UHGV virus genome: UHGV-0135138
From: a virus
Length of the DNA stretch: 24,508 bases
Direction: 5' to 3' (one strand)
Part shown: piece by piece, positions 6,058-24,499 of the stretch
How the letters are laid out: every line of letters starts with the position of its first letter
Position numbering within the stretch: position 1 is the first letter of the stretch
The notes under the pieces: generated by a model
What the model saw: the letters and a program-made list of their open reading frames with translations, nothing else
The model's database searches: none
Told to the model about the DNA's origin: nothing
Program-made: the position numbers and the translations under genes

Positions 6058-6101
6058 TCAGTATTGGGCGGCGAAAGCTGCCCATGTAGAGAGAAAGCGT
6101 A

Positions 6102-6536
6102 ATGAAACCTGCAAAAATTGTTCTATTAGAACCACAATTTTCCAGTTATTCGGGAATGCTGTGCGGTGTTCAGTTCGAGAATGGTGTGTCCATCGCAGAG
6201 TTGCCTTTTGTCGATCAGCAGAGAATTTGTGCCTCAATGCGAGCTTCAACAGTAGAGGGCAAAAATGTTTCTCCATCTGCCGCATACAGTGATCGTGGTG
6301 AATTGACCGCAGACCTGATTACAGAGCCAGTAGCGCCTGACATTGTACCAATGAAACGTGGGATGCCAGATGGACCGACCAAACAGATCCAGACTTTCAC
6401 ACGAGAAGAGCTGGAGTCAATTGCAGACAATGAAGGCATTGCCGGTCTACGTGTAATTGGGAATCAGATGGGTGTTAAAGCGAAAGGAATTGTCGAGATG
6501 ATTGAAGGTATCCTGAAAGCACAAGGCGGTGAGTAA
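6102..6536 (+). CDS. hypothetical head-associated protein sharing its N-terminal module with the upstream Ig-like protein
   Basis: 144 aa. N-terminal ~45 aa (EPQFSSYSGMLCGVQFENGVSIAELPFVDQQRICASMRA) aligns with the N-terminus of the 5398-6057 product (EEAFSDFTGHMCRVGFTNSISDEPLTERQQSQLSACLQA); the C-terminal part is unrelated. Stop overlaps the next start (TAATG). Confidence 0.6.
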   Translation: MKPAKIVLLEPQFSSYSGMLCGVQFENGVSIAELPFVDQQRICASMRASTVEGKNVSPSAAYSDRGELTADLITEPVAPDIVPMKRGMPDGPTKQIQTFTREELESIADNEGIAGLRVIGNQMGVKAKGIVEMIEGILKAQGGE

Positions 6537-7369
6537 TGGCGCAGATCGACTCGTATCGTAGCGGTGAAGCTGTTTCCCTTTCATTTGCCTTCAACGTGCT
6601 GGATATCGAATCTGCTACCTACACAGTAAAGGACAGCACCGGGGGTATTCTCGTTGATGGCGAACTGCTAGAAATTGCCAGCGGGCAAATGTCGATTCCG
6701 GTTGTTGTTCCGGCTGAATACAACCAGCTTTCTGAGAAAGAACGAGATCTGCGGTACGTCATTGTGAAAGCTGTTGCATCGGGTCTGACGCATGAAGAGC
6801 GGCAAATGTATGTTCTGCTGAATAGTTTTGAATTGTCGATACCGGAACAGTCGTTTGCAACTGTCGCTGATGCTCAAATGCAGGCGATCGATATGCTGAA
6901 TGGGGACACTTTGCTGTCGGATGGTGAAGGCTTAATGCGCAAGCGTCTCATTGAGGCTACCAGACGAATTAAAACTTTACCGTTCTCAATCCGCAAAATT
7001 CTACGTATCGACTTTGACCGATACGATCGCCCTCAAAATATGCTGAATGTGTATGACATTCCGTGGGGGGCAGATGGAGCGTACCGGCATGATTTAGTCG
7101 ATTGGGAAAAGATGACGCAGGAGAAGTTTGAAGAGTTCCCTGACTATTTCAAAGAAGCGTTGATGCTTGCCGTTGTCAACGAAGCGTGTGAGATCGCAAA
7201 TGGCAATGATGTAGCCGCAGCACGAGAGGATGGCATTTTGTCAGAGTCCATCGGTGAAACAACCAACATGTACCGTACCGGTAAAGCTGCAAACGTGCAT
7301 GTGGCTCGCAGTACCTGGCGCTTGCTGGTCAGTTACATCAACAACCGTATGATTGTTCGCCGTGCGTAA
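6536..7369 (+). CDS. hypothetical structural protein (neck / head completion region)
   Basis: 277-aa ORF, translationally coupled to neighbours, in the block between head and tail genes. No recognisable motif. Confidence 0.5.
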   Translation: MAQIDSYRSGEAVSLSFAFNVLDIESATYTVKDSTGGILVDGELLEIASGQMSIPVVVPAEYNQLSEKERDLRYVIVKAVASGLTHEERQMYVLLNSFELSIPEQSFATVADAQMQAIDMLNGDTLLSDGEGLMRKRLIEATRRIKTLPFSIRKILRIDFDRYDRPQNMLNVYDIPWGADGAYRHDLVDWEKMTQEKFEEFPDYFKEALMLAVVNEACEIANGNDVAAAREDGILSESIGETTNMYRTGKAANVHVARSTWRLLVSYINNRMIVRRA

Positions 7370-7448
7370 CGCCAGTCGCATTATTTACTTTTGGTCGAAA
7401 GGGTTTTTGGCCAGTAATGAGAGCGACCGACAACAACAGGGAGAGTGC

Positions 7449-7793
7449 ATGAATATTTCATGGCAAACAGAAATTGCGATCTACCGCTTTGGCGTAAAGA
7501 ACGTTTACGGCGAGGCGCAATTGCAATTCGTCAGGAAGACGAATGTCGGCGTGGTTAAGTTCGAACAGAGTAATGAGAAATCGTCAGTTCGTGCTGATAG
7601 CTCTGGTAGTCGTGGTAAGGCGAGTCTGGAGCTGTTTGATGCTGTGTTAATTGTCCCTTTGGAAGCGGCTGTACAACTTGATGATGTGCTGATCCTTGAA
7701 GGTCAAAAATTAAAGGTGTCCAGTGTTCATCGCCGCTGGGGGCTACGAGGAAGACCAGGGCATCTTGAAGTGGGGGCGAATATATGGGTCTGA
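7449..7793 (+). CDS. hypothetical head-tail joining protein
   Basis: ORF is open from a TTG at 7353, but the ATG at 7449 has a GGGAGAG RBS 3-5 nt upstream and does not overlap the previous gene, giving a ~114-aa product. Position fits a head-tail adaptor or head closure protein. Confidence 0.5.
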   Translation: MNISWQTEIAIYRFGVKNVYGEAQLQFVRKTNVGVVKFEQSNEKSSVRADSSGSRGKASLELFDAVLIVPLEAAVQLDDVLILEGQKLKVSSVHRRWGLRGRPGHLEVGANIWV

Positions 7794-8257
7794 AATACGA
7801 TGCGCATCAGTTCAAACGTGCGGGGAATAGACTCAACAACAGCCAGAAAGCATTTAAGCGATATCTTATTCGGGACATGGAAAAGCTGGCGCGTTTGGTT
7901 GAGCGTCTCAGCCGTGCAATGGATCCGCTGGAAACCGGATCTCTGGAGACAGCTATCTTTGCCAGGGTGATTAAAGAAGGTTATTCAGGGCTGCGCATTG
8001 AGCTTTCTGTGTCTGGAGCAAAACCACGTCAGGGGCATCCGGGCGTAGAAGTAGGTGACTATGCTAAGTACATGGAGCTGGGTAAATATCGACTCGGTTA
8101 TCTTTCTCGAATGAAGAACGTGACAAACCCACCAATTGCCGGTGTTAAACCTCGTGTTGGGCCACACTTTCTGGAAAGAGCGGTGGAAATTAGCGAGAAG
8201 CAGTTCTCAGAAGCGATTCTTGAGGCTGCCAGAAAAGCCGGTTTTACGAGAGGTTAA
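7784..8257 (+). CDS. hypothetical head-tail joining / tail completion protein
   Basis: 157-aa ORF overlapping the previous gene by 10 nt and ending in TAATGTG, which overlaps the next start. Basic protein in the neck-gene position. Confidence 0.55.
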   Translation: MGLKYDAHQFKRAGNRLNNSQKAFKRYLIRDMEKLARLVERLSRAMDPLETGSLETAIFARVIKEGYSGLRIELSVSGAKPRQGHPGVEVGDYAKYMELGKYRLGYLSRMKNVTNPPIAGVKPRVGPHFLERAVEISEKQFSEAILEAARKAGFTRG

Positions 8258-8258
8258 T

Positions 8259-8642
8259 GTGTTTATCGAAGCGTTTGCAAGTTTGATGCAGAAGGCAAAG
8301 ATTGGCACGGTCGGGACTGACATTTTCTGTCACTACTTGCCTGCCAATGTGAAATCTGGCGTCCTGCTTATTAACCCAAATACCGGCATCAGCATCGATC
8401 ATGAGCTACAGGGCTTTTATCACGAATCATTCACAATCATTGTGCGTGGTTCATCAGTAACCACGACGGTTGATAAGGCCAATAAAATCATTGAGATGTT
8501 TCCAGTAGAGGAAACGGAATCTGGTGGTGTTTATTTTCGACTTGTACGACCGATGGCGATGCCAATCATTTATCCCAAAAATGATGGGGCATTAATAGAA
8601 GCAGGCATTCCTGTTGAATTTGCTGGCTATTTATTGAATTAA
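8259..8642 (+). CDS. hypothetical tail terminator / tail completion protein
   Basis: Frame is open from 8136, but a GTG at 8259 immediately follows the upstream stop (coupled start), giving ~127 aa. It is the last gene before the major tail protein gene. Confidence 0.5.
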   Translation: MFIEAFASLMQKAKIGTVGTDIFCHYLPANVKSGVLLINPNTGISIDHELQGFYHESFTIIVRGSSVTTTVDKANKIIEMFPVEETESGGVYFRLVRPMAMPIIYPKNDGALIEAGIPVEFAGYLLN

Positions 8643-8650
8643 GTCAATTG

Positions 8651-8666
8651 GTAAGTATATACTTAC
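8651..8666 (+). promoter_or_regulatory. perfect 16-bp palindrome GTAAGTATATACTTAC (TAAGTA family) upstream of the major tail protein gene
   Basis: Exact reverse-complement symmetry, in a 74-bp AT-rich intergenic region, 8 nt after the upstream stop and 50 nt before the ATG at 8717. Confidence 0.4.
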
Positions 8667-8716
8667 TGTTAGCGCAATAAATGCGTAGAATTAAAGGAAA
8701 AAGGAGTTTTCCATCA

Positions 8717-9463
8717 ATGTCTAATACCCATGTAAAAAACATCAAACTTGGTGCCTGTAAGGTGTCGTTTGGTGGTGTGGATTTGGGGTACACCAAAGGT
8801 GGTGTTCAGGTTGAAGTTGCCACTGAAACGCTGAAAGTCACCGTCGACCAGCACGGTCAGACAATTATGTCCGAGCTGGTGCAGGGTCGTAACATTACCA
8901 TTACTGCGCCGCTGGCCGAGTCTGTATTGAAAAATATGGTCGATCTGATGCCGGGGTCTACTCTGAGCGAAGACGACAACGCTGTGACCATTACTTCCGC
9001 ACAGGGCGTCAATCTGATCGATGTGGCGAAGGAGCTGGTTCTGACTCCGCAGGACACCACCGACTATGTGTTGACCATCCCAAAAGCGGCAACCGCGGGC
9101 AACTTCACGATGACCTACCAGTCTGATGATATCCGTGTGTTCTCTGTTCAATTCAGCGCATACCCAGATGACGCGGGTGTGTTGGGGAAAATGGGAATGC
9201 ACAAGCCTGTTGAGAGTATCGCGATTAATTCAGCTACCCAAACAGTCAAAGTGGGGGCAAAACTCCAGTTAAGTGCGGCTTTCACTCCAGCGGATGCAAG
9301 TAATAAATCTGGGGTATGGGAGTCTAATGCCCCAGATAAGGCTGTTGTAGATCAAAATGGGGTTGTTTCGGGCAAGGCGGTTGGCTCAGTCGAGATTACT
9401 TTCACCGCCGATGACAGCGGAAAAAAAGCAACTAAATCAATTTCGGTAACAGCAGCAGGCTAA
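8717..9463 (+). CDS. major tail (tube) protein with C-terminal Ig-like (Big_2-type) domain
   Basis: ORF is open from 8681, but the ATG at 8717 follows the strong RBS AAAGGAAAAAGGAG, giving ~248 aa. The C-terminal ~85 aa (IAINSATQTVKVGAKLQLSAAFTPADASNKSGVWESNAPDKAVVDQNGVVSGKAVGSVEITFTADDSGKKATKSISVTAAG) has the same Ig-like pattern as the 5398-6057 product. Followed by a hairpin and the chaperone-tape measure pair. Confidence 0.8.
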   Translation: MSNTHVKNIKLGACKVSFGGVDLGYTKGGVQVEVATETLKVTVDQHGQTIMSELVQGRNITITAPLAESVLKNMVDLMPGSTLSEDDNAVTITSAQGVNLIDVAKELVLTPQDTTDYVLTIPKAATAGNFTMTYQSDDIRVFSVQFSAYPDDAGVLGKMGMHKPVESIAINSATQTVKVGAKLQLSAAFTPADASNKSGVWESNAPDKAVVDQNGVVSGKAVGSVEITFTADDSGKKATKSISVTAAG

Positions 9464-9468
9464 ACGTC

Positions 9469-9494
9469 ATACGAGGCTTAATTAGGCCTCGTAT
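9469..9494 (+). terminator. stem-loop (possible partial terminator / attenuator) after the major tail protein gene
   Basis: ATACGAGGC-ttaattag-GCCTCGTAT, a 9-bp stem followed by CTTGTAT (only a partial U tract). Confidence 0.45.
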
Positions 9495-9517
9495 CTTGTA
9501 TAAAAGGATTTTAACAA

Positions 9518-9835
9518 ATGACCAAATTACTCGATCTCGATTCCATTCTGCCTCCGAAGAAAAGTATCAAATTTGGCGGTCAGGAATATCCCATCGTTGA
9601 AATGACGGTAGGTCTGTTCGTTTCCATCAAGCAGATGGAAGGTAAAGATCTCATGAACATGTCTCCTGTTGAGCAGGTGACAGCTTATGCAGATCTGGTT
9701 CGTAAGGTTATCCCTTCTGTACCTGACGAAGTTCTTGAAAAACTGACTGTTCCGCAACTCCAGCAGATCTTCAACTTCGCTATGGAAGTGATTGATGAAG
9801 AAAACGAAAAAGCGGCTGGCGAAGGGGCAAAGTAA
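9518..9835 (+). CDS. tail assembly chaperone (lambda G-like position)
   Basis: 105-aa acidic protein between the major tail protein and tape measure genes. Its 3' end overlaps an open downstream frame in the -1 register, the conserved chaperone arrangement. Confidence 0.7.
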   Translation: MTKLLDLDSILPPKKSIKFGGQEYPIVEMTVGLFVSIKQMEGKDLMNMSPVEQVTAYADLVRKVIPSVPDEVLEKLTVPQLQQIFNFAMEVIDEENEKAAGEGAK

Positions 9836-10185
9836 TTTCCCGCGATGAATCCGGGACAAGGACCGTCTCAATAGATCTCGGATTCTATTTCAGTCGTGTA
9901 GTTGCTCACTACGCCGTGTCGCCATTAGAGCTATTGAACATCCCTCTCACGATGTTCTGGATGCTCAGCCGTAATATAGACCGTCTGCGTGCGGAAGAAG
10001 ATGTCCGCAACTTACAAGTCGCTCGTGTATCCCAGGCGAATGGCGAGGCTGTAAAGGCGTTCATGGAGGGGTTGCAACTCAGGATTGGAAGACCAGTCGT
10101 TACAGATAAAGTCTACGATCCAAGCCAGGATAAGGCAGACCCTGACGCCAAAGAGCAACTGATGCAAATATTTGGCAGAGGATGA
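9799..10185 (+). CDS. -1 frame extension of the tail assembly chaperone (lambda GT-like frameshift product, putative)
   Basis: The -1 frame is open from 9799 (after TGATGA at 9793-9798) to the stop at 10183-10185 and overlaps the last 12 codons of the chaperone ORF. Candidate slip site is the A5G run at 9807-9812 (GAA AAA G). The only internal start is a GTG at 9916 with no RBS, so independent initiation is unlikely. Confidence 0.5.
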   Translation, partial: RKRKSGWRRGKVISRDESGTRTVSIDLGFYFSRVVAHYAVSPLELLNIPLTMFWMLSRNIDRLRAEEDVRNLQVARVSQANGEAVKAFMEGLQLRIGRPVVTDKVYDPSQDKADPDAKEQLMQIFGRG

Positions 10186-10192
10186 CAAGGGA

Positions 10193-13100
10193 ATGTCACA
10201 AAACGTAGAGTTTATCCTGTCGCTGGAAGACAAACAGTTTACAGCGACAATCGATCGTGCGGGGAAACTGCTTACTCGATTTGGTGAGCAGGTAACAAAG
10301 CCTGCTCAAAAAATCCAAACCTTTGAACGCTCTTTGGGTTCGGTCGCCCGTATCATTGGCGTTCTGGAAAGCAAGCTCGATTCTACGGCAGACAAACTAC
10401 AGGATGTAGCTGCCGGTTTTGAGCTTGCTTCAGATGCTACGCGTAAAATGCGTGGCAACATCACCAGCCTCAATTCTGGTCTTAAAGCCCTGATTGAGCG
10501 CGTCGATACGACAACTTCTTCAGTAGATAAACTCACCGCGTCATTACGTAAAGTGCAATCAGAGCTAAATGATTTCTCTGATTGGGCGACCTATGCAAGC
10601 AAAAGCGCAAGCCGCTTTGGTACGGAGGTAAAAGAAGCCTCTGCGTCCGTGAGTGGTATGAATACGCGCCTTAATACCACGACGAAGCGACTCAGTAATT
10701 GGGGCGTCACAACGAGCCAGGCTGCCGAGGGGCTGAAAAAGGTTCGTGAGCAGATGGACGAAGTTATCGGACGTCAGCAACTGATTAGCAAGCCGGTACG
10801 CGTTCGTACATCTGGAAATGGCGATGGTGGTAGCGGTAGCGGTAGCGGGCAGCGTAGCGGCGCTTCTGGCCATAGAGGTAAAAGTAACGAAGGAGGTATG
10901 TTCTCTGGTCTTCGTGGCAACATTTTCCTGCTTGGCGAGATCGGAGATGCAGCCAGAACGGTTACTGACATCATGTTTGGGTGGCAGAAACCTATTGTTG
11001 AAGCTGCGGCCGAAATGGAACGTATGCGGGTGATGCTTCGAGGGTTGAATAAGGAGAAGTCCAACCCTGGCCAGGCTGCTGCTGATGATATGAAGTACAT
11101 CGTAGACATGGCTCAAAATGCGCCGTTCGCGATGCAGGCGTTAACAGACTCCTTCGTGAAGTTTCGTTCTGCTGGCTTAGATCCAACCGATGGTTCTCTA
11201 AAGGCGCTGGTGGACTCCGTTGCTCGTTTTGGTGGGGATAGCGAACTTCTGAAGCGTGCATCCATTGCTATTCAGCAAATGTCCGGTAAGGGCGTCGTGT
11301 CAATGGAAGAGCTACGTCAGCAATTAGGTGAGGCGATTCCGACAGCAATGAACGCAATGGCCAAGGCTGCTGGTCTGACAATGGGCGAGTTAACTAAAGC
11401 TGTAGCATCTGGAACGGTAGAAGCCAAAAACGCACTGGCACTTATGTTCAAAGAGTTGAAGATGCAGAACGAGGGAGCTGCGTCCGAAATGATGAACACA
11501 TTTACCGGTACGTTGGCGCAAATGAAGACAGCCTTTACGCTGTTCGCGGACAAAGTAGGCCAGACTGGTTATTTGTCTTCTTTAAGAGAGGGAATGAAAG
11601 AACTCACCTCCCTGATGAATAGCGCAGGGGGTACATCTTTTGCTCACTCGTTGGGAAGTGGATTGACAACGGCTGTGGATGGCTTGCGTGACCTGGCGAA
11701 ATGGCTGATTAAAAACCAGGAGCTTGTTGTCACTTTCGGCAAAGCCGTCGCTGTAACGATGGCCTTCAGACTCCTCAAATCGGGGATTTCTGGTGTCATC
11801 GGCACTGCTAATAGCATGATCAGCACCTTTGCTACGGTATCCACCACAATACAGGGGACATTTGATCTTGCGACGACAGCCGTTAAACGCTTCAATCGAG
11901 CCTCGCGCATGGGACTATCTACCATCCCAGCATTGATTTTTGCTATTCGCAATGCATTTGCTGGCTTGACTGCGTTCATGGCTGCAAACCCTATAGGATT
12001 CTTCTTTACTGCTGCGGTAACGGCGGTTTCGACGCTGATCTGGCACATGAGCAGTCTGAGGAAGAAAGTCGAAGACGTTGTAAACAAAGTCAGAGAAATC
12101 CCTGAAGCGATGACGCAGGCAGATCGCGCGATACTGGAAAGCGAACTGAGCAAGAAAGATCGAGAGATCGCCAGACTGGAAAAAGAAGTCGAGACTGGCA
12201 AAACCTTGCATTTTTCAGCATACACGGGACCGTACGAAGTTGGTGTCGATGTTGACGACAGCAAAAAGAAACTGGAAAAAACGCGAAAAGAAAGAGAGGA
12301 AGTCGCCAAAGCTCTTGATGGCGGCATAGCCGAAACCACCAAACAAAGCATTACTAAGAAATATAGAGAGGATATTGATGCGGTCAACCAGAAAGGGAAT
12401 GCATTAATAGCCTCACTCGCCAAAGAGATAGAAAGACTCACCAAAAGCAATGAGAAAATTGCCGCGCGGTCGGACTTGTCCGACCACGAAAAAAGCAAAT
12501 TAAGGGCAGAAAACAACGCAGAACTTGGACGTTTGTACGCCCAGGCCGACGAGCAAAAACTCAAAGGGTATAAAGCTCGTTATGAGAAGGGGCTTGGTGA
12601 ACTCGCCACATACTCAGAGGCGCTCAAAAAGGCCCAAGAGTCGAACGATATGCAGGGGCAAAAAGAAGCCCAGACAAAGATAGACTCCACCACCGAGGCT
12701 TTGAAGATTGTAAAAGAGGGGATGGAGAACCTTGAAATCAGTCTTAGCGTGAAAGCTGGGGACGGCTTGGTTTCTATTAATGGCGGTAAAATTGGTGAGT
12801 TTTCAAGCACACCAGTTGATGCTAATTCCAAAACTATGACTGGTTTTTGGAAACAGCAGATGGACTCTAAAAGGTATCAAAGAGTCAATCTCGATGGTTC
12901 CGCATTATACGACTTACAAGGTCAACCTGTTGTTGGGCCTCGACAACTCAAGGAGCAATTAAGACAGAAGAAAATTTACGGTGATGTGAAATTAGAGCAG
13001 TTGTCAGAAAATGACCGCATCGCAGTAATTAAGACTCTGACAAAAGCTCGTGAACTTGATGCTGAAGCAGCGGATAAGGCAGCAAACCGTACCGCAAAAG

Positions 13101-17314: not shown

Positions 17315-20300
17315 ATGGAACAGTTCAAGCAAAAAAAATTACCGCTTCTTATTGGCGGCGCTGGTGGTAAAAAAAGTAGCAAAAGCTCCAGCCGTACTCC
17401 GGTTGAAGCTGACGATACCGTGAATTCTCGTGCAATGGCCGCTATCCTCGATCTTCTTGGGGAAGGGGTAATTGGCGGCTTAGTAAATGGCGCAAGATCT
17501 ATTTTTGTCGACGATTTACCGATTGTAAATGAAGACGGCTCCTCCAATTTTAGCGGAATTACTTGGGATTTTCGCGACGGTTCACAAGACCAGACTCCAA
17601 TGTCCGGCTTTGATTTCGTTGAAACACCCAAATCCGTCAATATTCAATTAAAAAAAACACATTATGTAACGGTTTCAATCGATAACGATGAAGCTGATCG
17701 TGTTCGTGTCATCATGAAGTTTCCTTCTTTGCGAAGCGTAGATAAAAAAACTGGTGACACGAACGGCACGACTGTTGAGTACAAGTTCCAGATAGCGAAT
17801 GGCGACTCAACATTTGTAGATGTGGTTGCAGAAGGTGAAAAAAGCGTTGGCATTAAGCTAACTGCAAAGAAGACAGGTGTTTATTACCGTAGTTATGAAC
17901 TGAAGTTACCTAAGCCTGGGCGCGCGTATAAGGTGCGTGTTGTCCGTATTACCGATGACAACAACAGTCAGTATCTCTATAACGACACATGGGTAGACTC
18001 AATAGGTGAGATTGTTGATACACCGATGAACTACCCAAACTCTGTGCTGGTGGGGTTGAAGGTTAATTCTGAGCAGTTTGGCAACTCTATGCCATCTCGT
18101 TCGTATTTGGTGCGAGGATTAAAAATTCGTGTGCCGTCAAACTACAACGAATCCAGCAACACTTATGTGGGCGTATGGGATGGCACTTTTAAGCTGCTGT
18201 CTTCTTCGAACCCTGCGTGGATTCTCTTTGATTTGCTTACCAATGCTCGATATGGTCTTGGGCAATTCGTGTCGGAATCCATGATTGACCTTGGCCAACT
18301 GTACCAGATTGGTCGATATTGTGACGAAGAGGTCGATGATGGCTTTGGGGGTAAAGAGAAACGCTTTGCAATCAATACGCAGATCACCAGTCGACAGGAC
18401 GCATACCGATTAATTCAGGATATTGCCGGTGCATTCCGCGGCATGGTGTTTTGGGCTGGTGGCATGGTTAACATCATGCAGGATAGCCCATCAGATCCGG
18501 TAATGATGTTTACTAACTCCAACGTCAAAGATGGATTGTTTTCCTATAAAGGTTCTGCACGTAAAGATCGTCCATCAGTTGCGCTCGTGACTTATAACAA
18601 CAAGGAGGACGGTTATAAGCAAAATATCGAGTACGTCGAAGATCAGGAAGCAATGCGCCGTTATGGTGAGCGCAAAACAGAAGTCGTAGCATTTGGCTGT
18701 ACAAGTCGAGGACAGGCTCACCGAGTTGGTTTGTGGCTTTTGTATACCGCCAGAATGGAGTCGGATGTAATTACATTTACTGCCGGTTTAGACGCCTCAT
18801 TTCTGATGCCTGGTGAAACCGTTCTGATTCAGAATAAATATCGCGCGGACAAACGTAACTCCGGTCGAATTATGGAGTTTACCAAAAACAGCATCACTCT
18901 CGATGCGCCTGTGTCGTTAACTAAAAGCGGCAGCTTTATTCGGATACTGAATCAGGAAGGCAAAATCGTTGAACGCGATGTTCTTGAAACTGGCGAAAAC
19001 ATAACAAAGGTTACGTTTTCAAAAGCCCTGACGTCAGCGGAAACGCCTGTTTTGAGCGGTGTCTGGACAATTACAGAACCAGATCTCGAACCTATGCGCG
19101 TTCGCATCGTTAACATCGCGCAGGGGGAAACGCCGGGTAGCTTTGACATCACCGCTGTTGAGAACAATCCGACTAAATATGAGGCGATCGACAATGGTGC
19201 AACGCTTATCCCGCAGAATACGACGGTATTGGACCCGACTTACTCGAAGCCGTCTAATTTGCAAATCACTGAAGGGACTTATCTCTCAAGTCCGGGCAAC
19301 CTGTCAGTAAAATTGACTGCAACATGGGAAGGAAAATCTCCAGAATATTGGATCAGCTGGCGACGTTCAGATGAAAGCAATGTATCGAACTGGCAATCGG
19401 CGCGTGTAACCGAAGAGCAATACGAAATCGTTAATGTTGCGGAGAATGGACGCTACGACTTCCAGCTGTATGCGGTTTCATTCAACGGTAAAAAAACAGA
19501 GATCATCAGCACCGTTTATCAGGTGCAGGGCACAATGACTCCACCTGATTCGCCAACGTCATTAACGGCAGTTGGGGACTATCGAAATGTGATACTGAAT
19601 TGGATTAATCCAGATTCGGTGGACCTTGATCATATTAATGTTTACGCATCCAAGGTTAACAATCTGGATACAGCGAAACTGATCGCAGAGTCTGCAAGCA
19701 CCACCTTTACACATGCTGGTCTTGGGGATAACGAAACGTGGTATTACTGGGTGCGAGCATCGAACAAGCGCGGCATGTTAAGCCCTCCGAACTCAAACTT
19801 GGGTACAGAGGCGACAACTCGCGATGTATTGTCGTTCCTGACTGGCAAAATTACATCTTCCGAGCTTGGTCAGGCCTTGACTGAGGAAATTAGCTCAAAA
19901 GCCTCTCAGGAGGCGGTGAACTCCATCTATGAACAGATTGATGAAAGCCTGAAGAACCTTGATGGCAAGTTTTCAGAGACAGATCGGCGGCTTGAAGAAG
20001 CTCAAAACGATCTTAAAACGGAGGTTTCCAGCACCGTCAGCAAGGTAGAAGACGCTCTTAAAGAGGTTGAAGACTCTAACGCTGCTTTAATTCAGCTACA
20101 GGAGACTGTCTCCGAGCAGGGCAAGGCTGTGGCTGGTGCAGTCGAAGCGGCCCATGCTGCGTTCGAAAATGCTTCTGCATTGATTGCCGAAGAACGTGAG
20201 GCTCGAGTAGAAGGAGATATGGCTAACGCTAAACAGATTGAGACAATGAAATCTTCTGTTGACGATAGTGTTGCGGCAGTTGAAGAGATGAAGAAAACTG

Positions 20301-21475
20301 TGGCCGAAGTCGGGCGAGTCAGTGCTGAAACGACCACTAATATTGAAGCGTTGGCAAAAACTAATATTGATCTCGCATTACGCCAGGATGAAGAACAACA
20401 CAAGCAGTTAATGAATAACGCTAAGATAGCTACCACTCAGAAGACATTTGCTGATGATTTGTCAGCGATGGCGTCGAAAGTGGAAGAGATCCGTGCTGAA
20501 ATTGGTGAAGATATTCGCGCCTCTATCACGGAGGAAACGACAGCTCGGGTTGAGGCTGATAAGGCTATTGCAACCCAAATTGACAAGCTTGAAGCTCAGA
20601 TTAACGACGATATTGCTGCGGCGATTGTGCTTGAACAAGAGGCTCGCGTCACAGCCGACGAATCATTGTCAAAACAAATTACTACATTACAAGCCAAGGT
20701 TGAAGGCGACATCAGTGCGGCGTTGACCGAAGAGCAAATTGCCAGAGCGAGCGCTGATGAATCGTTGGCGCAACAAATCACAACACTAAAGACCCAAACA
20801 GGTGTTGATATCAAGGCGGCTGTTGCGGAAGAAACGAAAGCCAGAACTGATGTTGACTCTGCGCTGGCTGGGCAGATCACTAATTTGCAGGCTCAGACAG
20901 AAAAAGATATCAGCGCCGCAATTACGTCTGAATCTACCGCACGCGCAGAAGCTGATAAAGCACTAAGTGGTCGTATTGATACGATAAGGACTGAAGTAGA
21001 AGGCAACTCAGCAACTATCCAGCAGCAATCCCAAGCCATTGCCGACACCAACAAAAAAATCTCAACGGCGTGGACGTTGAAAATGGAGACTTCAACGAGT
21101 GGGGGGCAGAAGTATATTGCCGGTATTGCGCTTGGTATCGACACAACTGGTCTTTCTCAGTTTTTGGTGCAAGCGGACAGGTTTGGTTTGGTCAACTCTG
21201 TGAACGGGAAGATCACCACACCATTTGTTATCGAAAACAGCGTCGCCTATATGAATGGTGCGTATATCAAGGATGGCACAATCACCAATGCAAAAGTTGG
21301 TGATCTGCAATCTACCGATTTTGTCTCCGGTAGATCTGGATGGCGATTCGGTAAAAATGGAACGCTTGAGATCAACGGTAATAGCGGCGGCAATGGGCGA
21401 TTGGTCATAAATGGTCAGCGGATTGATGTTTATGACGATAACAACGTCCTACGAGTAAGAATTGGCCTTCTGTGA
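17315..21475 (+). CDS. J: central tail fibre / tip attachment protein, lambda J homologue
   Basis: ORF is open from TTG 17309; the ATG at 17315 is preceded by AAGGA. Long colinear similarity to lambda J as recalled (NSVLVGLKVNSEQFG, VPSNYN, IWDGTFK, GQYCD, DGFGG, AFGCTSRGQAHRVGLWL, GKIT.S.LG, KYIAGI.LG, LSQFLV). Followed by three in-frame stops (TGATAGTAG). Confidence 0.9.
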   Translation: MEQFKQKKLPLLIGGAGGKKSSKSSSRTPVEADDTVNSRAMAAILDLLGEGVIGGLVNGARSIFVDDLPIVNEDGSSNFSGITWDFRDGSQDQTPMSGFDFVETPKSVNIQLKKTHYVTVSIDNDEADRVRVIMKFPSLRSVDKKTGDTNGTTVEYKFQIANGDSTFVDVVAEGEKSVGIKLTAKKTGVYYRSYELKLPKPGRAYKVRVVRITDDNNSQYLYNDTWVDSIGEIVDTPMNYPNSVLVGLKVNSEQFGNSMPSRSYLVRGLKIRVPSNYNESSNTYVGVWDGTFKLLSSSNPAWILFDLLTNARYGLGQFVSESMIDLGQLYQIGRYCDEEVDDGFGGKEKRFAINTQITSRQDAYRLIQDIAGAFRGMVFWAGGMVNIMQDSPSDPVMMFTNSNVKDGLFSYKGSARKDRPSVALVTYNNKEDGYKQNIEYVEDQEAMRRYGERKTEVVAFGCTSRGQAHRVGLWLLYTARMESDVITFTAGLDASFLMPGETVLIQNKYRADKRNSGRIMEFTKNSITLDAPVSLTKSGSFIRILNQEGKIVERDVLETGENITKVTFSKALTSAETPVLSGVWTITEPDLEPMRVRIVNIAQGETPGSFDITAVENNPTKYEAIDNGATLIPQNTTVLDPTYSKPSNLQITEGTYLSSPGNLSVKLTATWEGKSPEYWISWRRSDESNVSNWQSARVTEEQYEIVNVAENGRYDFQLYAVSFNGKKTEIISTVYQVQGTMTPPDSPTSLTAVGDYRNVILNWINPDSVDLDHINVYASKVNNLDTAKLIAESASTTFTHAGLGDNETWYYWVRASNKRGMLSPPNSNLGTEATTRDVLSFLTGKITSSELGQALTEEISSKASQEAVNSIYEQIDESLKNLDGKFSETDRRLEEAQNDLKTEVSSTVSKVEDALKEVEDSNAALIQLQETVSEQGKAVAGAVEAAHAAFENASALIAEEREARVEGDMANAKQIETMKSSVDDSVAAVEEMKKTVAEVGRVSAETTTNIEALAKTNIDLALRQDEEQHKQLMNNAKIATTQKTFADDLSAMASKVEEIRAEIGEDIRASITEETTARVEADKAIATQIDKLEAQINDDIAAAIVLEQEARVTADESLSKQITTLQAKVEGDISAALTEEQIARASADESLAQQITTLKTQTGVDIKAAVAEETKARTDVDSALAGQITNLQAQTEKDISAAITSESTARAEADKALSGRIDTIRTEVEGNSATIQQQSQAIADTNKKISTAWTLKMETSTSGGQKYIAGIALGIDTTGLSQFLVQADRFGLVNSVNGKITTPFVIENSVAYMNGAYIKDGTITNAKVGDLQSTDFVSGRSGWRFGKNGTLEINGNSGGNGRLVINGQRIDVYDDNNVLRVRIGLL
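20508..21002 (+). repeat. five tandem 99-bp (33-aa) coding repeats inside J
   Basis: Protein repeats EDIRASITEETTARVEADKAIATQIDKLEAQIN / DDIAAAIVLEQEARVTADESLSKQITTLQAKVE / GDISAALTEEQIARASADESLAQQITTLKTQTG / VDIKAAVAEETKARTDVDSALAGQITNLQAQTE / KDISAAITSESTARAEADKALSGRIDTIRTEVE. More degenerate copies extend upstream to about 20170. Confidence 0.75.
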
Positions 21476-21505
21476 TAGTAGAAAAAAAAATTTATATCGG
21501 TAAAA

Positions 21506-21568: not shown

Positions 21569-24103
21569 ATGTGGTACAGGGAAGGTACTATCACATTTAC
21601 ACAGGGTAGCAATACTCTGGTTGGGGCAGGGACAGCCTGGAACGTAACCGCTAATGGTGTGTTGCCGGGTATGATCGTCGTTGGCCCCGATAATAAACTG
21701 TATGAGATCAAGCGCGTAACCAGTGACACGAATATTGTTCTCTCAGAACCTTATACCGGTGAAACTCAGTCTGAAGTTCCGTGCCGAATCATTACGACCT
21801 ATGAGGGCGACTTAACGCAGTTTAGCGCACGCTTTACTGCACTAATGTCGCGTATGTCGGCTGATTCCAAGTCCATGCGTAGTTGGCTGACTGCCGTGGA
21901 TGAAATCACAATTGAACGTGAAGATGGTACGGAATTAACCATAAAATCCCTTACTCAGATCGTTAATGAGCACAACAAAAACGTAGAGTGGTATAAAAAT
22001 AACACTGATGAAATTGATTCCGCTGGCACCTATGCGCGTGAGGCCGCGAGTAGCGCGACAACTGCTGCGCAAAACGCTGAGCGCGTTGAACAGATCGCGC
22101 AAAATATTGCTAACAGTATAAGTACGGCCCAGCAGGCTGCCACAGATGCTGCAAATAGTGCCGGTGCCGCGAAAACGTCAGAAACGAATGCGGCAGCGTC
22201 ACAACAATCAGCAGCCACTTCTGCATCCACCGCGACCACGAAAGCGTCAGAAGCAGCCTCCTTAGCCAGGGATGCGTCGGCTTCAAAAGAGGCGGCAAAA
22301 TCATCAGAAGCGAACGCGAAAGCGTCGGAAACCAGTGCCGAATCCTCAAAAACGGCAGCCGCATCGTCAGCCAGTTCGGCAGCGTCATCGGCATCGTCTG
22401 CGTCGGCTTCAAAAGATGAAGCGACTAAACAGGCGTCAGCCGCAAAAGATAGTGCTATGACTGCATCCTCGAAAGCAACAGAGGCGACAGGCAGTGCAAC
22501 GGCTGCCTCTCAGAGCAAAACTGCTGCTGAATCCGCTGCGACCCGTGCGGAAGCTGCTGCTGCTCGTGCTGAAGAGATTGCCGGTGCAGTTGCGATGGAA
22601 GACGCAAGCCTTACAACTAAAGGTGTTGTGAAACTTAGCAGTGCGACCAACAGCACTTCAGAGTCACTGGCTGCAACCCCAAAAGCGGTAAAAGCTGCAT
22701 ATGACCTGGCTGACGGGAAATACACTGCGCAGGATGCAACGACAACCCAGAAAGGGATAATCCAGCTAAGTAGCGCCATCAATGACGAATCTGAAACGCT
22801 TGCTGCAACGCCAAAAGCGGTAAAAGTCGCCTATGACAATGCCGAAAACCGCCTGCAGAAAGATCAGAATGGCGCTGATATCCCTGACAAGAACGCATTC
22901 AGGGAAAGTCTTGGGCTGGGGGATGCCGCCACCAAAAATATCGGTACTACAGCCGGCACCGTAGCGGCAGGAAACGACTCCAGACTGGTTAACGCACTGC
23001 AAAAATCCACTTCAGCCCTGGCCGTGGACCTGAATACACTGGGGAGTCTGGAAGTCCAGGGAACTTATTATCAGCCAGCGGATAAAGGGGCAACAGCTGC
23101 GCATCATTACCCGGTGCTCCGGTCCGGGACATTGCAGGTTCTGCCTGGTGTCTGGGGAGGCTGCCAACAGGAATATACGAGCTGGAATCCACCGAGAAAA
23201 TTTGTGAGAACACTGACAGGCTATTTCAAAGGTAATGGCCCGTGGTCGCCGTGGGTGGAGGTGGCGTTTACCGACAGTACAGTGGCTGTTGCGACCGCAG
23301 CGACAAAATTGCAGACGACCAGAAGAGTTGGTGGTGTGGATTTTGACGGGACATCAGATATCAGCCTCCCCGGAGTGGATGCGCCAGGCGATCAGGATAC
23401 GACAGGTAATGCGGCTACTGCGACCAAATTGCAGACGCCAGTGAATATTAACGGTACAGCGTTTGATGGTAGCCACGATATCACGATCCGGGATGAAGGT
23501 GCATTTCAGAAGCCTGCGCTCTTTATACATTCCTCTGTAGATTTGAACACGCTAGGTGGTCCAGGTAGCGAAGGTTTTTATTTTCAGAAATACGGGAGTG
23601 TGGCGACAGTTGATCATCATTACCCAACCAACAGACCAGGCACGCTGACTGTACTGCGTGGTGGATTTGACGGATGCCAGCAGGAATATTTTAGTGTTAA
23701 TCCTCCAAGGAAATTTTTCAGGGCATTAACAGGAGCCTGGAACGGACAGGATGGCCCATGGTCAGACTGGTTTGAGATTCAGACTCTGGGAGGTGGAAGT
23801 GGAGGTACGCAGGTTTTTGGAACCGAATATCAAAATAAATCATCAGAACGCGGTCCGGGTGTTACATACACTAATAGTCGATCGTATCCGATTATGGTGA
23901 TCATTGATGGATACTACGGAGGTGGTGACGGTTTTCATCTTTTTATAAACGATGAAATATTGATATCCCCATCTACATCTTCAGGACAAAATGACGACCA
24001 ATTTCAGTTTACTTTCATCGTTCCGGCAGGCGCAACGTACATGATCTTTGAAAAAACTTTCGGTACGAATTTCCGTATTCACACCTGGTTGGAGTTTTGT
24101 TAA
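21569..24103 (+). CDS. stf: side tail fibre protein (Stf-like), mosaic
   Basis: 844 aa with GGAG RBS. Long Ala/Ser/Thr-rich shaft (AAKTSETNAAASQQSAATSASTATTKASEAA...) that I recall as nearly identical to lambda Stf. Conserved tail-fibre motifs TKGVVKLSSATNSTSESLAATPKAVKAAYDLADGKYTAQDATTTQKGIIQLSSAINDESETLAATPKAVKVAYDNAEN. Distinct N-terminus and a C-terminal region with internal duplications. Confidence 0.9.
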   Translation: MWYREGTITFTQGSNTLVGAGTAWNVTANGVLPGMIVVGPDNKLYEIKRVTSDTNIVLSEPYTGETQSEVPCRIITTYEGDLTQFSARFTALMSRMSADSKSMRSWLTAVDEITIEREDGTELTIKSLTQIVNEHNKNVEWYKNNTDEIDSAGTYAREAASSATTAAQNAERVEQIAQNIANSISTAQQAATDAANSAGAAKTSETNAAASQQSAATSASTATTKASEAASLARDASASKEAAKSSEANAKASETSAESSKTAAASSASSAASSASSASASKDEATKQASAAKDSAMTASSKATEATGSATAASQSKTAAESAATRAEAAAARAEEIAGAVAMEDASLTTKGVVKLSSATNSTSESLAATPKAVKAAYDLADGKYTAQDATTTQKGIIQLSSAINDESETLAATPKAVKVAYDNAENRLQKDQNGADIPDKNAFRESLGLGDAATKNIGTTAGTVAAGNDSRLVNALQKSTSALAVDLNTLGSLEVQGTYYQPADKGATAAHHYPVLRSGTLQVLPGVWGGCQQEYTSWNPPRKFVRTLTGYFKGNGPWSPWVEVAFTDSTVAVATAATKLQTTRRVGGVDFDGTSDISLPGVDAPGDQDTTGNAATATKLQTPVNINGTAFDGSHDITIRDEGAFQKPALFIHSSVDLNTLGGPGSEGFYFQKYGSVATVDHHYPTNRPGTLTVLRGGFDGCQQEYFSVNPPRKFFRALTGAWNGQDGPWSDWFEIQTLGGGSGGTQVFGTEYQNKSSERGPGVTYTNSRSYPIMVIIDGYYGGGDGFHLFINDEILISPSTSSGQNDDQFQFTFIVPAGATYMIFEKTFGTNFRIHTWLEFC

Positions 24104-24105: not shown

Positions 24106-24471
24106 ATGAAATATTTTGTCGATGCGAAAGGTACTATTTATGCCTACGAGTCTGACGGTTCGCAGGATGAGTTCATTAAAGAGGGACTGACGCCAGTAAC
24201 GGAAGCGGAGGTGAAAGAACGCCTGAAACCATCAGCAGAATGCTGGCAACGACGAGCGGAGAGCAAGAGAGAGTCGTTGATATCTGAAGCTGGTCGCAAT
24301 TTGTCCGTCAATCAGGTTCGATTGCTTTCGGGGCGTGTGTTATCAGAACGTGAGAGTCAGTCGCTGAATGCCTGGCTGGATTACGTAGACGCACTGGAGG
24401 CGATGACGTTTGCTGCTGTTGTTGATGAGGAAAGCTATCTCAGCATCAAGTGGCCGGAAAAACCCGCGTGA
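24106..24471 (+). CDS. tfa: tail fibre assembly protein (Tfa-like chaperone)
   Basis: ORF is open from TTG 24097; the ATG at 24106 (MKYFVDAKG...) is more plausible, with GGAG 11 nt upstream. Immediately follows the fibre gene. C-terminus LNAWLDYVDALEAMTFAAVVDEESYLSIKWPEKPA resembles the lambda Tfa C-terminus (EAWKKYRVLLNRVD...APDIEWPAVP, recalled). Confidence 0.8.
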   Translation: MKYFVDAKGTIYAYESDGSQDEFIKEGLTPVTEAEVKERLKPSAECWQRRAESKRESLISEAGRNLSVNQVRLLSGRVLSERESQSLNAWLDYVDALEAMTFAAVVDEESYLSIKWPEKPA

Positions 24472-24478: not shown

Positions 24479-24499
24479 GCCCGCACACAAGGTGCGGGC
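24479..24499 (-). terminator. intrinsic terminator hairpin oriented for minus-strand transcription (possibly bidirectional)
   Basis: GCCCGCAC-acaag-GTGCGGGC, an 8-bp GC stem. The T run (AAAAA on the + strand, 24473-24477) lies on the side that follows the stem for a minus-strand transcript; on the + strand the stem is followed by AAATGATCG. Confidence 0.55.

What the first reader, a model, noticed from the sequence alone, without database searches (positions are those of the whole stretch)
21100..21475. J C-terminus is short and unlike the lambda receptor-binding domain
After the conserved LSQFLV motif only about 105 residues remain (ending ...GWRFGKNGTLEINGNSGGNGRLVINGQRIDVYDDNNVLRVRIGLL), against roughly 250 in lambda J, where the LamB-binding domain resides. 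Receptor recognition may therefore have moved to another module, most obviously the large side tail fibre downstream, or J uses a different compact binding domain. This rests on my recollection of lambda J.
Basis: inference. Interest (0 to 1): 0.5.

Follow-up and report, generated by a model that had tools for sequence, protein, structure and literature searches.

The report
Tail-tip protein J without receptor domain
This phage's central tail-fibre protein J really does stop before the part that lambda uses to grip its receptor, but this is the usual, already described design of phi80/T1/F-pyocin-type tails, in which small separately encoded proteins (not visible on this short contig) and side fibres do the gripping.

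Summary
J (17315-21475, 1386 aa) has 101 residues after LSQFLV, against 235 in lambda J. It lacks lambda's Ig-like receptor-binding domain (PF12421).

Those last residues are not a new compact binding domain. They are the distal part of the conserved tail-tip fibre domain (PF09327, lambda's beta-prism "central straight fibre") plus a roughly 30-residue cap. phi80 J and T1 gp33 end the same way, the F2-pyocin central fibre matches up to the cap and ends 11 residues after the match, and so do 130 of the 150 best database representatives.

The window is a complete 24.5-kb metagenome contig from an SSU5-like phage-plasmid. Five relatives (four whole genomes and one plasmid locus) each encode one pair of small proteins (phrog_557 plus phrog_425, homologues of phi80 gp22/gp23). 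The pair lies after stf, directly after J, or about 60 kb away. Its alleles track host genus and the penultimate residue of J.

Published models place such pairs on the J tip as the detached receptor binder. The contig ends 37 nt after tfa, so the pair cannot be seen for this phage. The distal half of J is SSU5-like and ends in the SSU5-type "GLL".

Verdict: a real feature and a new member of a known architecture. Interest is low.

The parts
17315..21475 (+). Gene J (central tail fibre / tip attachment protein), 1386 aa. The ORF opens at TTG 17309; the ATG at 17315 is the start used by the ENA gene call.
   Evidence: It is 31% identical to lambda J over residues 18-859 (E 5e-114). Pfam finds FNIII-A_GpJ at 102-236, Phage-tail_3 at 358-521, fn3 at 645-728 and Phage_Tail_Tip at 1234-1368.
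19880..21013 (+). Alpha-helical shaft (coiled-coil-like) region of J, aa ~856-1233. It is about 370 aa longer than the corresponding lambda segment.
   Evidence: The BLASTP alignment with lambda breaks at aa 859 and resumes at 1229. Composition is A 17%, E 13%, T 9%, and hydrophobic autocorrelation peaks at 33, 4 and 7. This segment is 88-93% identical to SSU5 J but only 57-85% identical to Cyrano J, which carries extra blocks of 25, 66 and 98 aa here.
20519..21013 (+). Five tandem 33-aa protein repeats (aa 1069-1233). They carry the alternating SxSxxMxxLxS pattern described for the coiled-coil-to-beta-prism fold switch of the F7-pyocin central fibre.
   Evidence: Reverse-orientation pattern matches fall at aa 1069, 1102, 1135, 1168 and 1201, and forward matches at 1084, 1117, 1150, 1183 and 1216. 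In total there are 14 matches, against 4.8 +/- 2.2 (maximum 13) in 1000 shuffles. The pattern is defined in PMC12874032. No repeat is detectable at the DNA level.
21014..21418 (+). PF09327 Phage_Tail_Tip domain (aa 1234-1368). It corresponds to the end of the helical shaft plus the beta-prism 'central straight fibre' of lambda J.
   Evidence: Pfam E 1.3e-41, profile positions 1-138 of 139. It matches PDB chains of the F2-pyocin fibre 25vf_A (E 1.4e-24), T1 gp33 9l9p_S (E 1.7e-21) and lambda J 8iyk_J residues 838-971 (E 7.9e-11). Lambda domain names are from PMC11101478.
21152..21169 (+). The LSQFLV motif (aa 1280-1285), identical to lambda J 892-897.
21380..21475 (+). Terminal cap of the short J form (aa 1356-1386, GGNGRLVINGQRIDVYDDNNVLRVRIGLL) with its stop codon. 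Two further in-frame stops follow at 21476-21481.
   Evidence: The cap aligns to the very end of T1 gp33 (to residue 1167 of 1172) and of phi80 J. In J variants with a C-terminal extension the match stops at query position ~105-112, just before this cap. The penultimate residue co-varies with the tip-protein allele in relatives.
21569..24103 (+). Side tail fibre gene stf, 844 aa. The N-terminus is shared with SSU5-like phage-plasmids, and the distal end is rare.
   Evidence: Pfam Phage_fiber_2 repeats. The N-terminal 200 aa are 93% identical to E. coli relatives. The distal 150 aa have no tblastn match in 50,697 phage or 72,556 plasmid records. The distal part has only profile-level matches to the C-termini of phrog_18834 (E 6e-11) and phrog_26525.
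24106..24471 (+). Tail fibre assembly chaperone gene tfa, 121 aa.
   Evidence: Pfam Caudo_TAP E 5e-10 and phrog_188.
24479..24499 (-). GC-rich hairpin whose T-run lies on the minus strand (terminator-like), 8 nt after tfa. The contig ends at 24508.

Best explanation
J of this SSU5-like phage-plasmid is an 'RBD-less' central tail fibre of the phi80 / T1 / F-type-pyocin class. Its parts, in order, are lambda-like hub and FNIII domains, a long alpha-helical shaft, the beta-prism central straight fibre (PF09327) and a conserved ~30-residue cap. It has no fused receptor-binding domain.

The 101 residues after LSQFLV are structural. They form the distal prism and probably the docking site for the binder; they are not the binder itself.

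By homology and by the gene content of relatives, the terminal receptor binder is most likely supplied in trans by a pair of small proteins: phrog_557 (~85-100 aa, all-beta) and phrog_425 (~190-225 aa). These are homologues of phi80 gp22/gp23 and the positional counterparts of PyoF11/PyoF12, and they are thought to cap the J tip. Stf with Tfa would provide the first, reversible adsorption.

Binding at the tip would then be relayed up the prism into the shaft. The shaft's five 33-aa repeats carry the F7-pyocin fold-switch signature, and this relay would open the hub.

Shown here: the domain content and end point of J, its homology to the solved or modelled fibres, the presence, placement and host-linked alleles of the small-protein pair in relatives, and the mosaic SSU5-like distal half of this J.

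Inferred: that this phage encodes such a pair beyond the contig end, that the pair docks on J and binds the receptor, and that the shaft switches fold.
For: (1) Pfam: PF09327 reaches residue 1368 of 1386 and PF12421 is absent, whereas lambda has both.

(2) The C-terminal 191 aa match the F2-pyocin central fibre (E 1.4e-24) and T1 gp33 up to its last residues (E 1.7e-21). They match lambda J only at 838-971, upstream of its receptor-binding domain.

(3) phi80 J ends at the same cap and is followed by gp22, gp23 and cor.

(4) SSU5_023 and SSU5_024 fall in the same PHROGs as phi80 gp22 and gp23: phrog_557 at 7.6e-22 and 2.4e-36, and phrog_425 at 7.5e-44 and 1.1e-78. SSU5 Cor is 44% identical to phi80 Cor.

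(5) Each of the five relatives checked for the pair has one. It lies after stf in SSU5 and pM160133_p3, and about 60 kb away in Cyrano (CYRAN_88/89, E 6e-29 and 2e-70), both CMS-2020a records and PhiR41_1. In nine IMG/VR loci (L036 and others) it lies directly after J.

(6) Alleles track host genus in PLSDB. The SSU5 type is in 126 plasmids (Escherichia, Enterobacter, Salmonella, Citrobacter). The Cyrano type is in 125 (117 Escherichia). The third type is in 11 (9 Cronobacter).

(7) Alleles track the end of J. Among J ending ...GLL, 13 of 15 have the SSU5-type locus, against 1 of 12 among ...GRL. All 9 of 9 ending ...LGQL have the third type (Fisher p 7e-5, loci not independent).

(8) The distal half of the window's J (aa 900-1386) is 88-95% identical to SSU5 J, has the same length, and ends GLL.

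(9) Short-ending forms dominate: 130 of the 150 best of 1122 representative hits end within 8 aa of the match.

(10) Literature. RBPs encoded downstream of J-like proteins determine the receptor in small siphoviruses (PMC8594841; bioRxiv 10.64898/2026.04.02.716166). One such RBP has been solved on LptDE (PMC12685063). AlphaFold models place the small Ig-like and 'hand-like' proteins on RBD-less J tips (PMC12309495). PyoF11/F12 are essential and are predicted to cap the pyocin fibre (PMC12874032; PMC13455828).
Against: No phrog_557, phrog_425 or cor homologue lies in the 24.5-kb contig, and the rest of the genome could not be recovered. The pair is therefore a prediction for this phage.

The hairpin after tfa has its T-run on the minus strand, which hints at a downstream arrangement unlike SSU5.

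The only experimental receptor reported for SSU5 is LPS core, bound by a tail-fibre protein (cited in PMC12312913). The primary paper was not available.

No experiment in any phage shows that phrog_557/425 proteins sit on J or bind a receptor. The support consists of gene-receptor correlations, pyocin genetics and AlphaFold models.

The link between J's end and the allele has exceptions (L024, L047) and rests on related, non-independent loci.
Confidence: 0.7

Rival explanations
1. Side-fibre-only recognition. The J tip is naked and purely mechanical, and all host recognition is done by Stf/Tfa.
For: Stf and Tfa lie directly downstream of J, and the distal domain of Stf is rare and divergent. 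No small tip genes lie in the contig. SSU5 is reported to infect via LPS core bound by a tail-fibre protein (PMC12312913).
Against: Each of the five relatives checked for it keeps a phrog_557/425 pair with host-linked alleles. In the homologous F7 pyocin the side fibres and PyoF11/F12 are each essential (PMC12874032). In lambda and T5 the trigger for tail opening comes from the central tip, not the side fibres (PMC11101478).
Confidence: 0.17
2. The last ~100 residues of J are themselves a compact receptor-binding domain of a new kind.
For: This is the most distal part of the polypeptide. A k-mer model flagged the J C-terminal tip as associated with receptor specificity in Drexlerviridae (bioRxiv 10.64898/2026.04.02.716166).
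Against: Pfam assigns all but the last 18 residues to PF09327, which in lambda is the structural prism above the receptor-binding domain. The stretch is 85-97% identical across relatives from different host genera, whereas the small-protein alleles are only 23-30% identical to one another. The authors of the k-mer study themselves read the signal as J-RBP compatibility.
Confidence: 0.1
3. Artefact: J is truncated by an assembly error, a frameshift or a nonsense mutation, and the true protein carries a lambda-like domain.
For: The contig has low coverage (cov 3.57).
Against: There are three consecutive in-frame stops, then an intergenic region, then the stf start with its ribosome-binding site. 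The identical end point occurs in 44 IMG/VR loci, in SSU5, in Cyrano and in E. coli plasmids. 130 of the 150 best representatives end the same way.
Confidence: 0.01

Closest known systems
Phage phi80 gp21 (J) with gp22, gp23 and Cor; the FhuA-type 'RBP locus' of the BASEL analysis
   Same: [quoted passage not shown] Relatives of the window (SSU5, pM160133_p3) carry homologues of gp22 (phrog_557), gp23 (phrog_425) and Cor.
   Different: In phi80 the pair lies directly after J. In SSU5-like elements it lies after stf, directly after J, or ~60 kb away. Identity to gp22/gp23 is only 25-29%. The shaft of the window's J is much longer (1386 vs 1159 aa). The pair is unseen for the window itself.
F-type pyocin central fibre (PyoF10 of F2, PDB 25vf; the F7 central fibre protein) with PyoF11/PyoF12
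   Same: This is the best PDB sequence match to the C-terminal 191 aa (E 1.4e-24). It has a long coiled-coil shaft before the prism, no fused receptor-binding domain, and small downstream proteins predicted to cap the tip. The shaft of the window's J carries the F7 SxSxxMxxLxS pattern in five 33-aa repeats (~165 aa, against 163 aa in F7).
   Different: It is a tailocin of Pseudomonas, not a phage of enterobacteria. Homology of PyoF11/F12 to phrog_557/425 was not tested here because no sequences were available. Attachment of side fibres to the shaft is shown only for the pyocins.
Lambda gpJ
   Same: The hub, FNIII, helical shaft and central straight fibre are homologous: 31% identity over ~840 aa and 34% around the identical LSQFLV motif.
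   Different: Lambda adds a linker and the Ig-like LamB-binding domain (PF12421, residues 1001-1132), which the window's J lacks. The lambda shaft is about 370 aa shorter. The NCBIfam lambda_TipJ score is 535 bits, against a cut-off of 1950.
T1 gp33 and other Drexlerviridae / Dhillonvirus J-like proteins
   Same: The C-terminus aligns to the last residues of gp33. Receptor specificity in these phages maps to genes downstream of J (PMC8594841). A 'knife-like' J end plus Ig-like and hand-like small proteins has been modelled for Dhillonvirus JLBYU60 (PMC12309495).
   Different: These are virulent phages of ~45-50 kb, whereas the window belongs to the ~105-kb SSU5-like phage-plasmids. The C-terminus of gp33 is unresolved in the T1 map.
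T5 pb4 (central fibre) with pb5 (receptor-binding protein)
   Same: The principle is the same: the central fibre and the receptor binder are separate polypeptides (stated in PMC8594841 and PMC13455828).
   Different: No sequence relationship was tested or found here. pb5 is a single large protein.

Membership tests
Lambda-type TipJ with fused receptor-binding domain | N-terminal hub domains and FNIII domains homologous to lambda J | tested here: met
   BLASTP gives 31% identity over window J aa 18-859 against lambda J 2-835, E 5e-114. Pfam finds FNIII-A_GpJ, Phage-tail_3 and fn3.
Lambda-type TipJ with fused receptor-binding domain | C-terminal Ig-like receptor-binding domain (PF12421 Ig_GpJ_C) | tested here: not met
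   The window's J has no PF12421 hit and only 18 residues after PF09327. Lambda J scores 4.5e-74 at residues 1001-1132.
Lambda-type TipJ with fused receptor-binding domain | Reaches the curated NCBIfam lambda_TipJ cut-off | tested here: not met
   NF049904 scores 535 bits against a cut-off of 1950, and the match covers only residues 23-973.
RBD-less central fibre (phi80 / T1 / F-pyocin class) | PF09327 domain at the extreme C-terminus, ending in the conserved cap | tested here: met
   PF09327 lies at 1234-1368 of 1386. The cap aligns to the ends of T1 gp33 and phi80 J. 130 of the 150 best representatives end there.
RBD-less central fibre (phi80 / T1 / F-pyocin class) | Separately encoded small tip proteins (phrog_557 + phrog_425, or another RBP) in the same genome | not testable with these tools
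   None lies in the contig, and the contig ends 37 nt after tfa. The pair is present in SSU5, pM160133_p3, Cyrano, CMS-2020a and PhiR41_1.
RBD-less central fibre (phi80 / T1 / F-pyocin class) | The small proteins physically cap the J tip and bind the receptor | not testable with these tools
Fold-switching central fibres (F7-pyocin type) | Coiled-coil segment carrying the alternating SxSxxMxxLxS strand pattern, directly upstream of a seed beta-prism | tested here: met
   There are 14 pattern matches, 10 of them at exact 33-aa spacing in aa 1069-1226, immediately before PF09327. Shuffles give 4.8 +/- 2.2.
Fold-switching central fibres (F7-pyocin type) | Actual helix-to-prism transition on receptor binding | not testable with these tools
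   This needs trimer structure prediction in two states, or cryo-EM. Neither was attempted.
SSU5-like phage-plasmids | Collinear, closely similar structural module | tested here: met
   The window is 91% identical at the nucleotide level to CMS-2020a and Cyrano, and 79% to SSU5, over J-stf. It is 95-96% identical to Cyrano over window positions 1-11361. The gene order TerS to Tfa is the same.

The most novel reading that the evidence does not exclude
In the SSU5-like phage-plasmids, which are widespread in Enterobacteriaceae, the receptor-binding end of the central fibre is a free-standing two-gene cassette (phrog_557 + phrog_425) that has become unlinked from J. It sits after stf, directly after J, or ~60 kb away among early or accessory genes. 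Its alleles match both the host genus and the last residues of J. If so, host range of these plasmids could be read from, and reprogrammed by, a ~0.9-kb cassette plus one or two J-tip residues. The window's mosaic J (an E. coli-type hub joined to an SSU5-type shaft and tip) would then be a natural example of such re-matching.
Probability: 0.45. Interest if true: 0.45.

Novelty: new member of a known kind. Interest (0 to 1): 0.2.

Why it matters
RBD-less J proteins with receptor binders encoded elsewhere are documented for T5, Drexlerviridae and Dhillonvirus, phi80-like phages and F-type pyocins.

Its practical value is for annotation. The J gene of SSU5-like phage-plasmids should not be used on its own to predict the receptor. 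The informative genes are stf/tfa and a small two-gene pair that may lie far from the tail genes and is usually mislabelled 'outer membrane protein' and 'membrane associated protein'.

These phage-plasmids are common in clinical E. coli, Salmonella, Enterobacter and Klebsiella, and some carry resistance genes. Knowing which genes set their host range therefore has some epidemiological interest.

Tried and rejected
1. A word-indexed homologue search with the J C-terminus returned almost only gene fragments, so it was useless for judging architecture. It was replaced by tblastn on phage records and by the exhaustive representative scan.

2. I tried to see what follows tfa in this genome. Exact-protein look-ups with Stf and Tfa returned only the window's own contig, NODE_636 of ERZ1749178. 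ENA-derived homologues of the small protein came from other samples. One of them (L085) is joined to a tape-measure fragment and was uninformative.

3. The primary SSU5 receptor paper (PMC3911222) is not held, so its claim is cited second-hand.

4. PDB sequence searches with the small tip proteins found nothing.

6. I first classed Cyrano-type elements as lacking tip proteins because nothing lies within 10 kb of J. I withdrew this after finding the pair ~60 kb away.

7. Tandem Repeats Finder saw no DNA-level repeat in the shaft. The 33-aa periodicity exists only at the protein level.

8. The J Virol 2023 FhuA paper treats J itself as the RBP and gave no information on the small proteins.

9. 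Truncation by assembly error was considered and rejected (see the rival explanations).
Full report
**What the window is.** The 24,508-base window is one complete metagenome contig (ENA ERZ1749178, NODE_636, coverage 3.6). It carries the structural module of an SSU5-like phage-plasmid, running from the small terminase subunit to the tail fibre chaperone. Positions 1-11361 are 95-96% identical to Escherichia phage Cyrano, starting at Cyrano base 117. The J-stf region is 91% identical to CMS-2020a and Cyrano and 79% identical to Salmonella phage SSU5. The gene order M, L, K, I, J, stf matches SSU5 and Cyrano.

**Checking the observation.** J runs from 17315 (ATG; the ORF opens at TTG 17309) to 21475 and is 1386 aa long. 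LSQFLV is aa 1280-1285 (nt 21152-21169), which leaves 101 residues. I fetched lambda J from NC_001416. It is 1132 aa, has the identical LSQFLV at 892-897, and so leaves 235 residues.

In Pfam, lambda J has PF09327 (Phage_Tail_Tip) at 845-972, followed by PF12421 (the C-terminal receptor-binding domain) at 1001-1132. The window's J and SSU5 J have PF09327 at 1234-1368 (full profile), then 18 residues, and no PF12421. The NCBIfam lambda_TipJ model scores 535 bits against a cut-off of 1950 and covers only residues 23-973.

**What the last 101 residues are.** They are not an unknown compact domain. BLASTP aligns window J aa 1229-1319 with lambda 839-931 (34% identity). In the lambda structure papers this region is the end of the alpha-helical shaft and the beta-prism "central straight fibre", which sits above the receptor-binding domain (PMC11101478).

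A sequence search of the PDB with the C-terminal 191 aa gave these matches:
- the F2-pyocin central fibre (25vf_A, E 1.4e-24, matched to residue 1193 of 1204);
- T1 gp33 (9l9p_S, E 1.7e-21, matched to residue 1167 of 1172, including the final ...LRVQIG);
- a "J-like tail tip protein gp24" (23gd_D);
- lambda J, only at residues 838-971 (E 7.9e-11).

phi80 J (1159 aa) aligns to the end as well. The last ~31 residues (GGNGRLVINGQRIDVYDDNNVLRVRIGLL) form a terminal cap found in the short forms. In J variants that carry an extension, the similarity stops just before this cap.

**How common the short ending is.** An exhaustive phmmer scan of 1.84 billion cluster representatives with the last 141 aa found 1122 hits. 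Of the best 150, 130 end within 8 residues of the end of the match (61 of the 70 proteins of at least 900 aa). Fifteen continue for 51-195 residues, with the match cut at query position ~105-112. The top list favours full-length matches, so the ratio is biased. Even so, the short ending is clearly a normal and widespread form. tblastn found the module in 1511 phage records, including phi80-like, T1-like and Klebsiella siphoviruses.

**Where receptor binding goes.** In phi80, J is followed by gp22 (100 aa), gp23 (224 aa) and cor. SSU5 carries an 84-aa "outer membrane protein", a 188-aa "membrane associated protein" and Cor, located after its tail fibre and adhesin genes. These fall in the same PHROGs as phi80 gp22 and gp23: phrog_557 at 7.6e-22 and 2.4e-36, and phrog_425 at 7.5e-44 and 1.1e-78. 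The two Cor proteins are 44% identical.

I fetched 68 related IMG/VR loci and scanned the 10 kb downstream of J in each. Four arrangements emerged:
- **(i)** Short J ending ...RVRIGLL, then stf, then phrog_557, phrog_425 and cor. Examples are SSU5, E. coli plasmid pM160133_p3 and about 12 IMG/VR loci.
- **(ii)** Short J ending ...RVRIGRL, then stf, then the lysis genes, with no pair nearby. Examples are Cyrano, pMB3825A_2 and about 9 IMG/VR loci.
- **(iii)** Short J ending ...RVRLGQL, directly followed by a Cor-like gene, phrog_557 (E 2e-8) and phrog_425 (E 2e-19), and then stf (nine loci).
- **(iv)** J with a fused extension of 219 or 240 residues after the motif and no pair nearby (nine loci).

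Arrangement (ii) is not pair-less. Cyrano encodes CYRAN_88/89 at 81.9-82.8 kb, which score phrog_557 E 6e-29 and phrog_425 E 2e-70. Both CMS-2020a records and PhiR41_1 carry the same allele (86-99.5% identity), and none of the three has a pair near J. SSU5 has nothing at the syntenic site, where SSU5_094 and SSU5_095 are adjacent. Each relative checked for the pair thus has one, in one of three positions.

**Alleles, hosts and the end of J.** In PLSDB the three alleles have these distributions:

| Allele | Plasmids | Main host genera |
|---|---|---|
| SSU5 type | 126 | Escherichia 73, Enterobacter 40, Salmonella 6, Citrobacter 5 |
| Cyrano type | 125 | Escherichia 117, Shigella 5 |
| Third type | 11 | Cronobacter 9, Citrobacter 2 |

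The J tip module is in 783 plasmids, 202 of them from Escherichia. If the two Escherichia alleles are mutually exclusive, which I did not verify, about 190 of those 202 carry one.

The alleles are only 23-30% identical to one another. The last 150 residues of J, by contrast, are 85-97% identical across all arrangements. Between arrangements (i) and (ii) in E. coli, the only difference in the last 150 residues is the penultimate residue, L versus R. Among J ending GLL, 13 of 15 have the SSU5-type locus, against 1 of 12 among those ending GRL (Fisher p 7e-5). The loci are related and therefore not independent, and there are two exceptions, L024 and L047.

This is the pattern expected if the J tip is a conserved adaptor and the small pair is the variable, host-specific binder that must fit it. 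The same reading was proposed for Drexlerviridae from k-mer models (bioRxiv 10.64898/2026.04.02.716166).

**What the literature already says.**
- The BASEL study matched "RBP loci" downstream of J homologues to FhuA, BtuB, YncD and LptD. It noted that only some phages have a lambda-like fused C-terminal extension (PMC8594841).
- One such RBP has been solved bound to LptDE (PMC12685063).
- Matusiak et al. described J proteins that lack the Ig-like domain and end in a "knife-like" fold. These are followed by a small Ig-like protein annotated "outer membrane protein" and a ~23-kDa "hand-like" protein annotated "membrane associated protein". They modelled both on the spike tip (PMC12309495).
- For F-type pyocins, two groups report that the central fibre ends in a lambda-like prism without a receptor-binding domain. 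PyoF11/PyoF12, encoded just downstream, are essential and are predicted to cap it (PMC12874032; PMC13455828).

**The shaft.** Compared with lambda, the window's J has about 370 extra residues between the FNIII domains and PF09327 (aa ~856-1233). Residues 1069-1233 are five 33-aa repeats. The strand pattern SxSxxMxxLxS, described for the F7-pyocin coiled-coil-to-beta-prism fold switch, occurs in alternating orientation at exact 33-residue spacing. There are 14 matches, against 4.8 +/- 2.2 in shuffles. At ~165 residues this segment is the same size as the 163-residue switching segment of F7, and it abuts the "seed" prism. Relatives vary in shaft length by multiples of about 33 aa: Cyrano has +25, +66 and +98.

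The window's J is a mosaic. Residues 1-800 are 96-99% Cyrano-like. Residues 900-1386 are 88-95% SSU5-like, have SSU5's length, and end in SSU5's GLL.

**What can be said for this phage.** No phrog_557, phrog_425 or cor homologue lies in the contig, and the contig ends 37 nt after tfa. I could not find the neighbouring contig. Two things make it likely that such a pair exists elsewhere in this genome, probably of the SSU5 type: relatives consistently carry one, and the distal half of this J is SSU5-like. I put this at about 0.85. It remains a prediction. A terminator-like hairpin with its T-run on the minus strand follows tfa, so the downstream layout may differ from SSU5.

**The side fibre.** Stf (844 aa) shares its N-terminal ~150-200 residues with relatives (93%) and has Phage_fiber_2 repeats. 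It contains an internal duplication: aa ~500-580 and ~655-737 are 57% identical, and each copy carries HHYP...GCQQEY...NPPRKF. Its distal 150 residues have no tblastn match in the phage or plasmid collections. The distal part has only profile-level matches to the C-termini of phrog_18834 and phrog_26525. Tfa is a Caudo_TAP chaperone. In homologous systems, however, it acts alongside the tip binder and does not replace it.

**Verdict.** Recognition has indeed moved off J, but the best precedented recipient is a small trans-encoded tip pair acting together with Stf, and J's remaining C-terminus is a conserved structural prism and cap rather than a new binding domain. This J is a new (mosaic) member of a known kind. 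Interest in the finding as stated is low (0.2). The modular, unlinked and host-matched tip cassette of SSU5-like phage-plasmids is a modestly interesting by-product.

Noticed in passing
window 20519-21013 (J aa 1069-1233): There are five exact 33-aa protein repeats carrying the alternating F7-pyocin fold-switch pattern. No repeat is detectable at the DNA level. Relatives differ in repeat number: Cyrano J has +66 and +98 aa here.
   Followed up: partly
window 17315-21475: J is a mosaic. Residues 1-800 are 96-99% identical to Cyrano (E. coli type). Residues 900-1386 are 88-95% identical to SSU5 and only 57-85% to Cyrano. The recombination joint lies around aa 800-900, at the start of the shaft.
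   Followed up: partly
window 23651-24100 (Stf distal 150 aa): This stretch has no tblastn match in 50,697 phage records or 72,556 plasmids. It has only profile matches to the C-termini of phrog_18834 (E 6e-11) and phrog_26525. It is a rare distal fibre tip of unknown specificity.
   Followed up: partly
window 23066-23308 and 23531-23779 (Stf aa ~500-580 and ~655-737): Stf contains an internal duplication (57% identity over 82 aa). Each copy carries HHYP...GCQQEY...NPPRKF...GPWS.W.
   Followed up: no
window 24479-24499: A GC-rich hairpin directly after tfa has its T-run on the minus strand only. This suggests a convergent minus-strand gene beyond the contig end, unlike SSU5 and Cyrano, where plus-strand genes follow.
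   Followed up: no
window 21473-21481: J ends with three consecutive in-frame stop codons (TGA TAG TAG), followed by an A9 run.
   Followed up: no
L078 3934-4832 (Cyrano 81933-82831): The phrog_557/phrog_425 pair of Cyrano-type phage-plasmids lies ~60 kb from J among early or accessory genes. The 201-aa protein is 82% identical to the 'membrane associated protein' of Nonagvirus phages JenP1, JenP2 and BRET, and 61% identical to that of Stx-converting phages. This points to exchange of the cassette between very different phage groups.
   Followed up: partly
L024 and L047 (IMG/VR loci): These are exceptions to the association between J's end and the tip allele. L024 ends GRL but has the SSU5-type locus after stf. 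L047 ends GLL but has no locus before the holin gene.
   Followed up: no
L057-L063, L065, L070 (IMG/VR loci): These SSU5-like J variants have a fused C-terminal extension (219 or 240 residues after the LSQFLV-type motif) that replaces the cap. The extension has no Pfam hit. In L057 it is followed by a 210-aa DUF4376 / phrog_1141 tail fibre protein.
   Followed up: partly
NC_011917.1 versus OV696614.1: E. coli LF82 plasmid NC_011917.1 has the same length as phage Cyrano (108,379 bp) and a 100% identical CYRAN_89 homologue. Cyrano is presumably the LF82 phage-plasmid.
   Followed up: no
L085 1-375 (ENA ERZ28650150 scaffold_734): A tape-measure gene fragment (78% identical to window 10616-10962) is joined directly upstream of a phrog_557/425/cor locus. 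This is a deletion variant or a chimeric scaffold.
   Followed up: no
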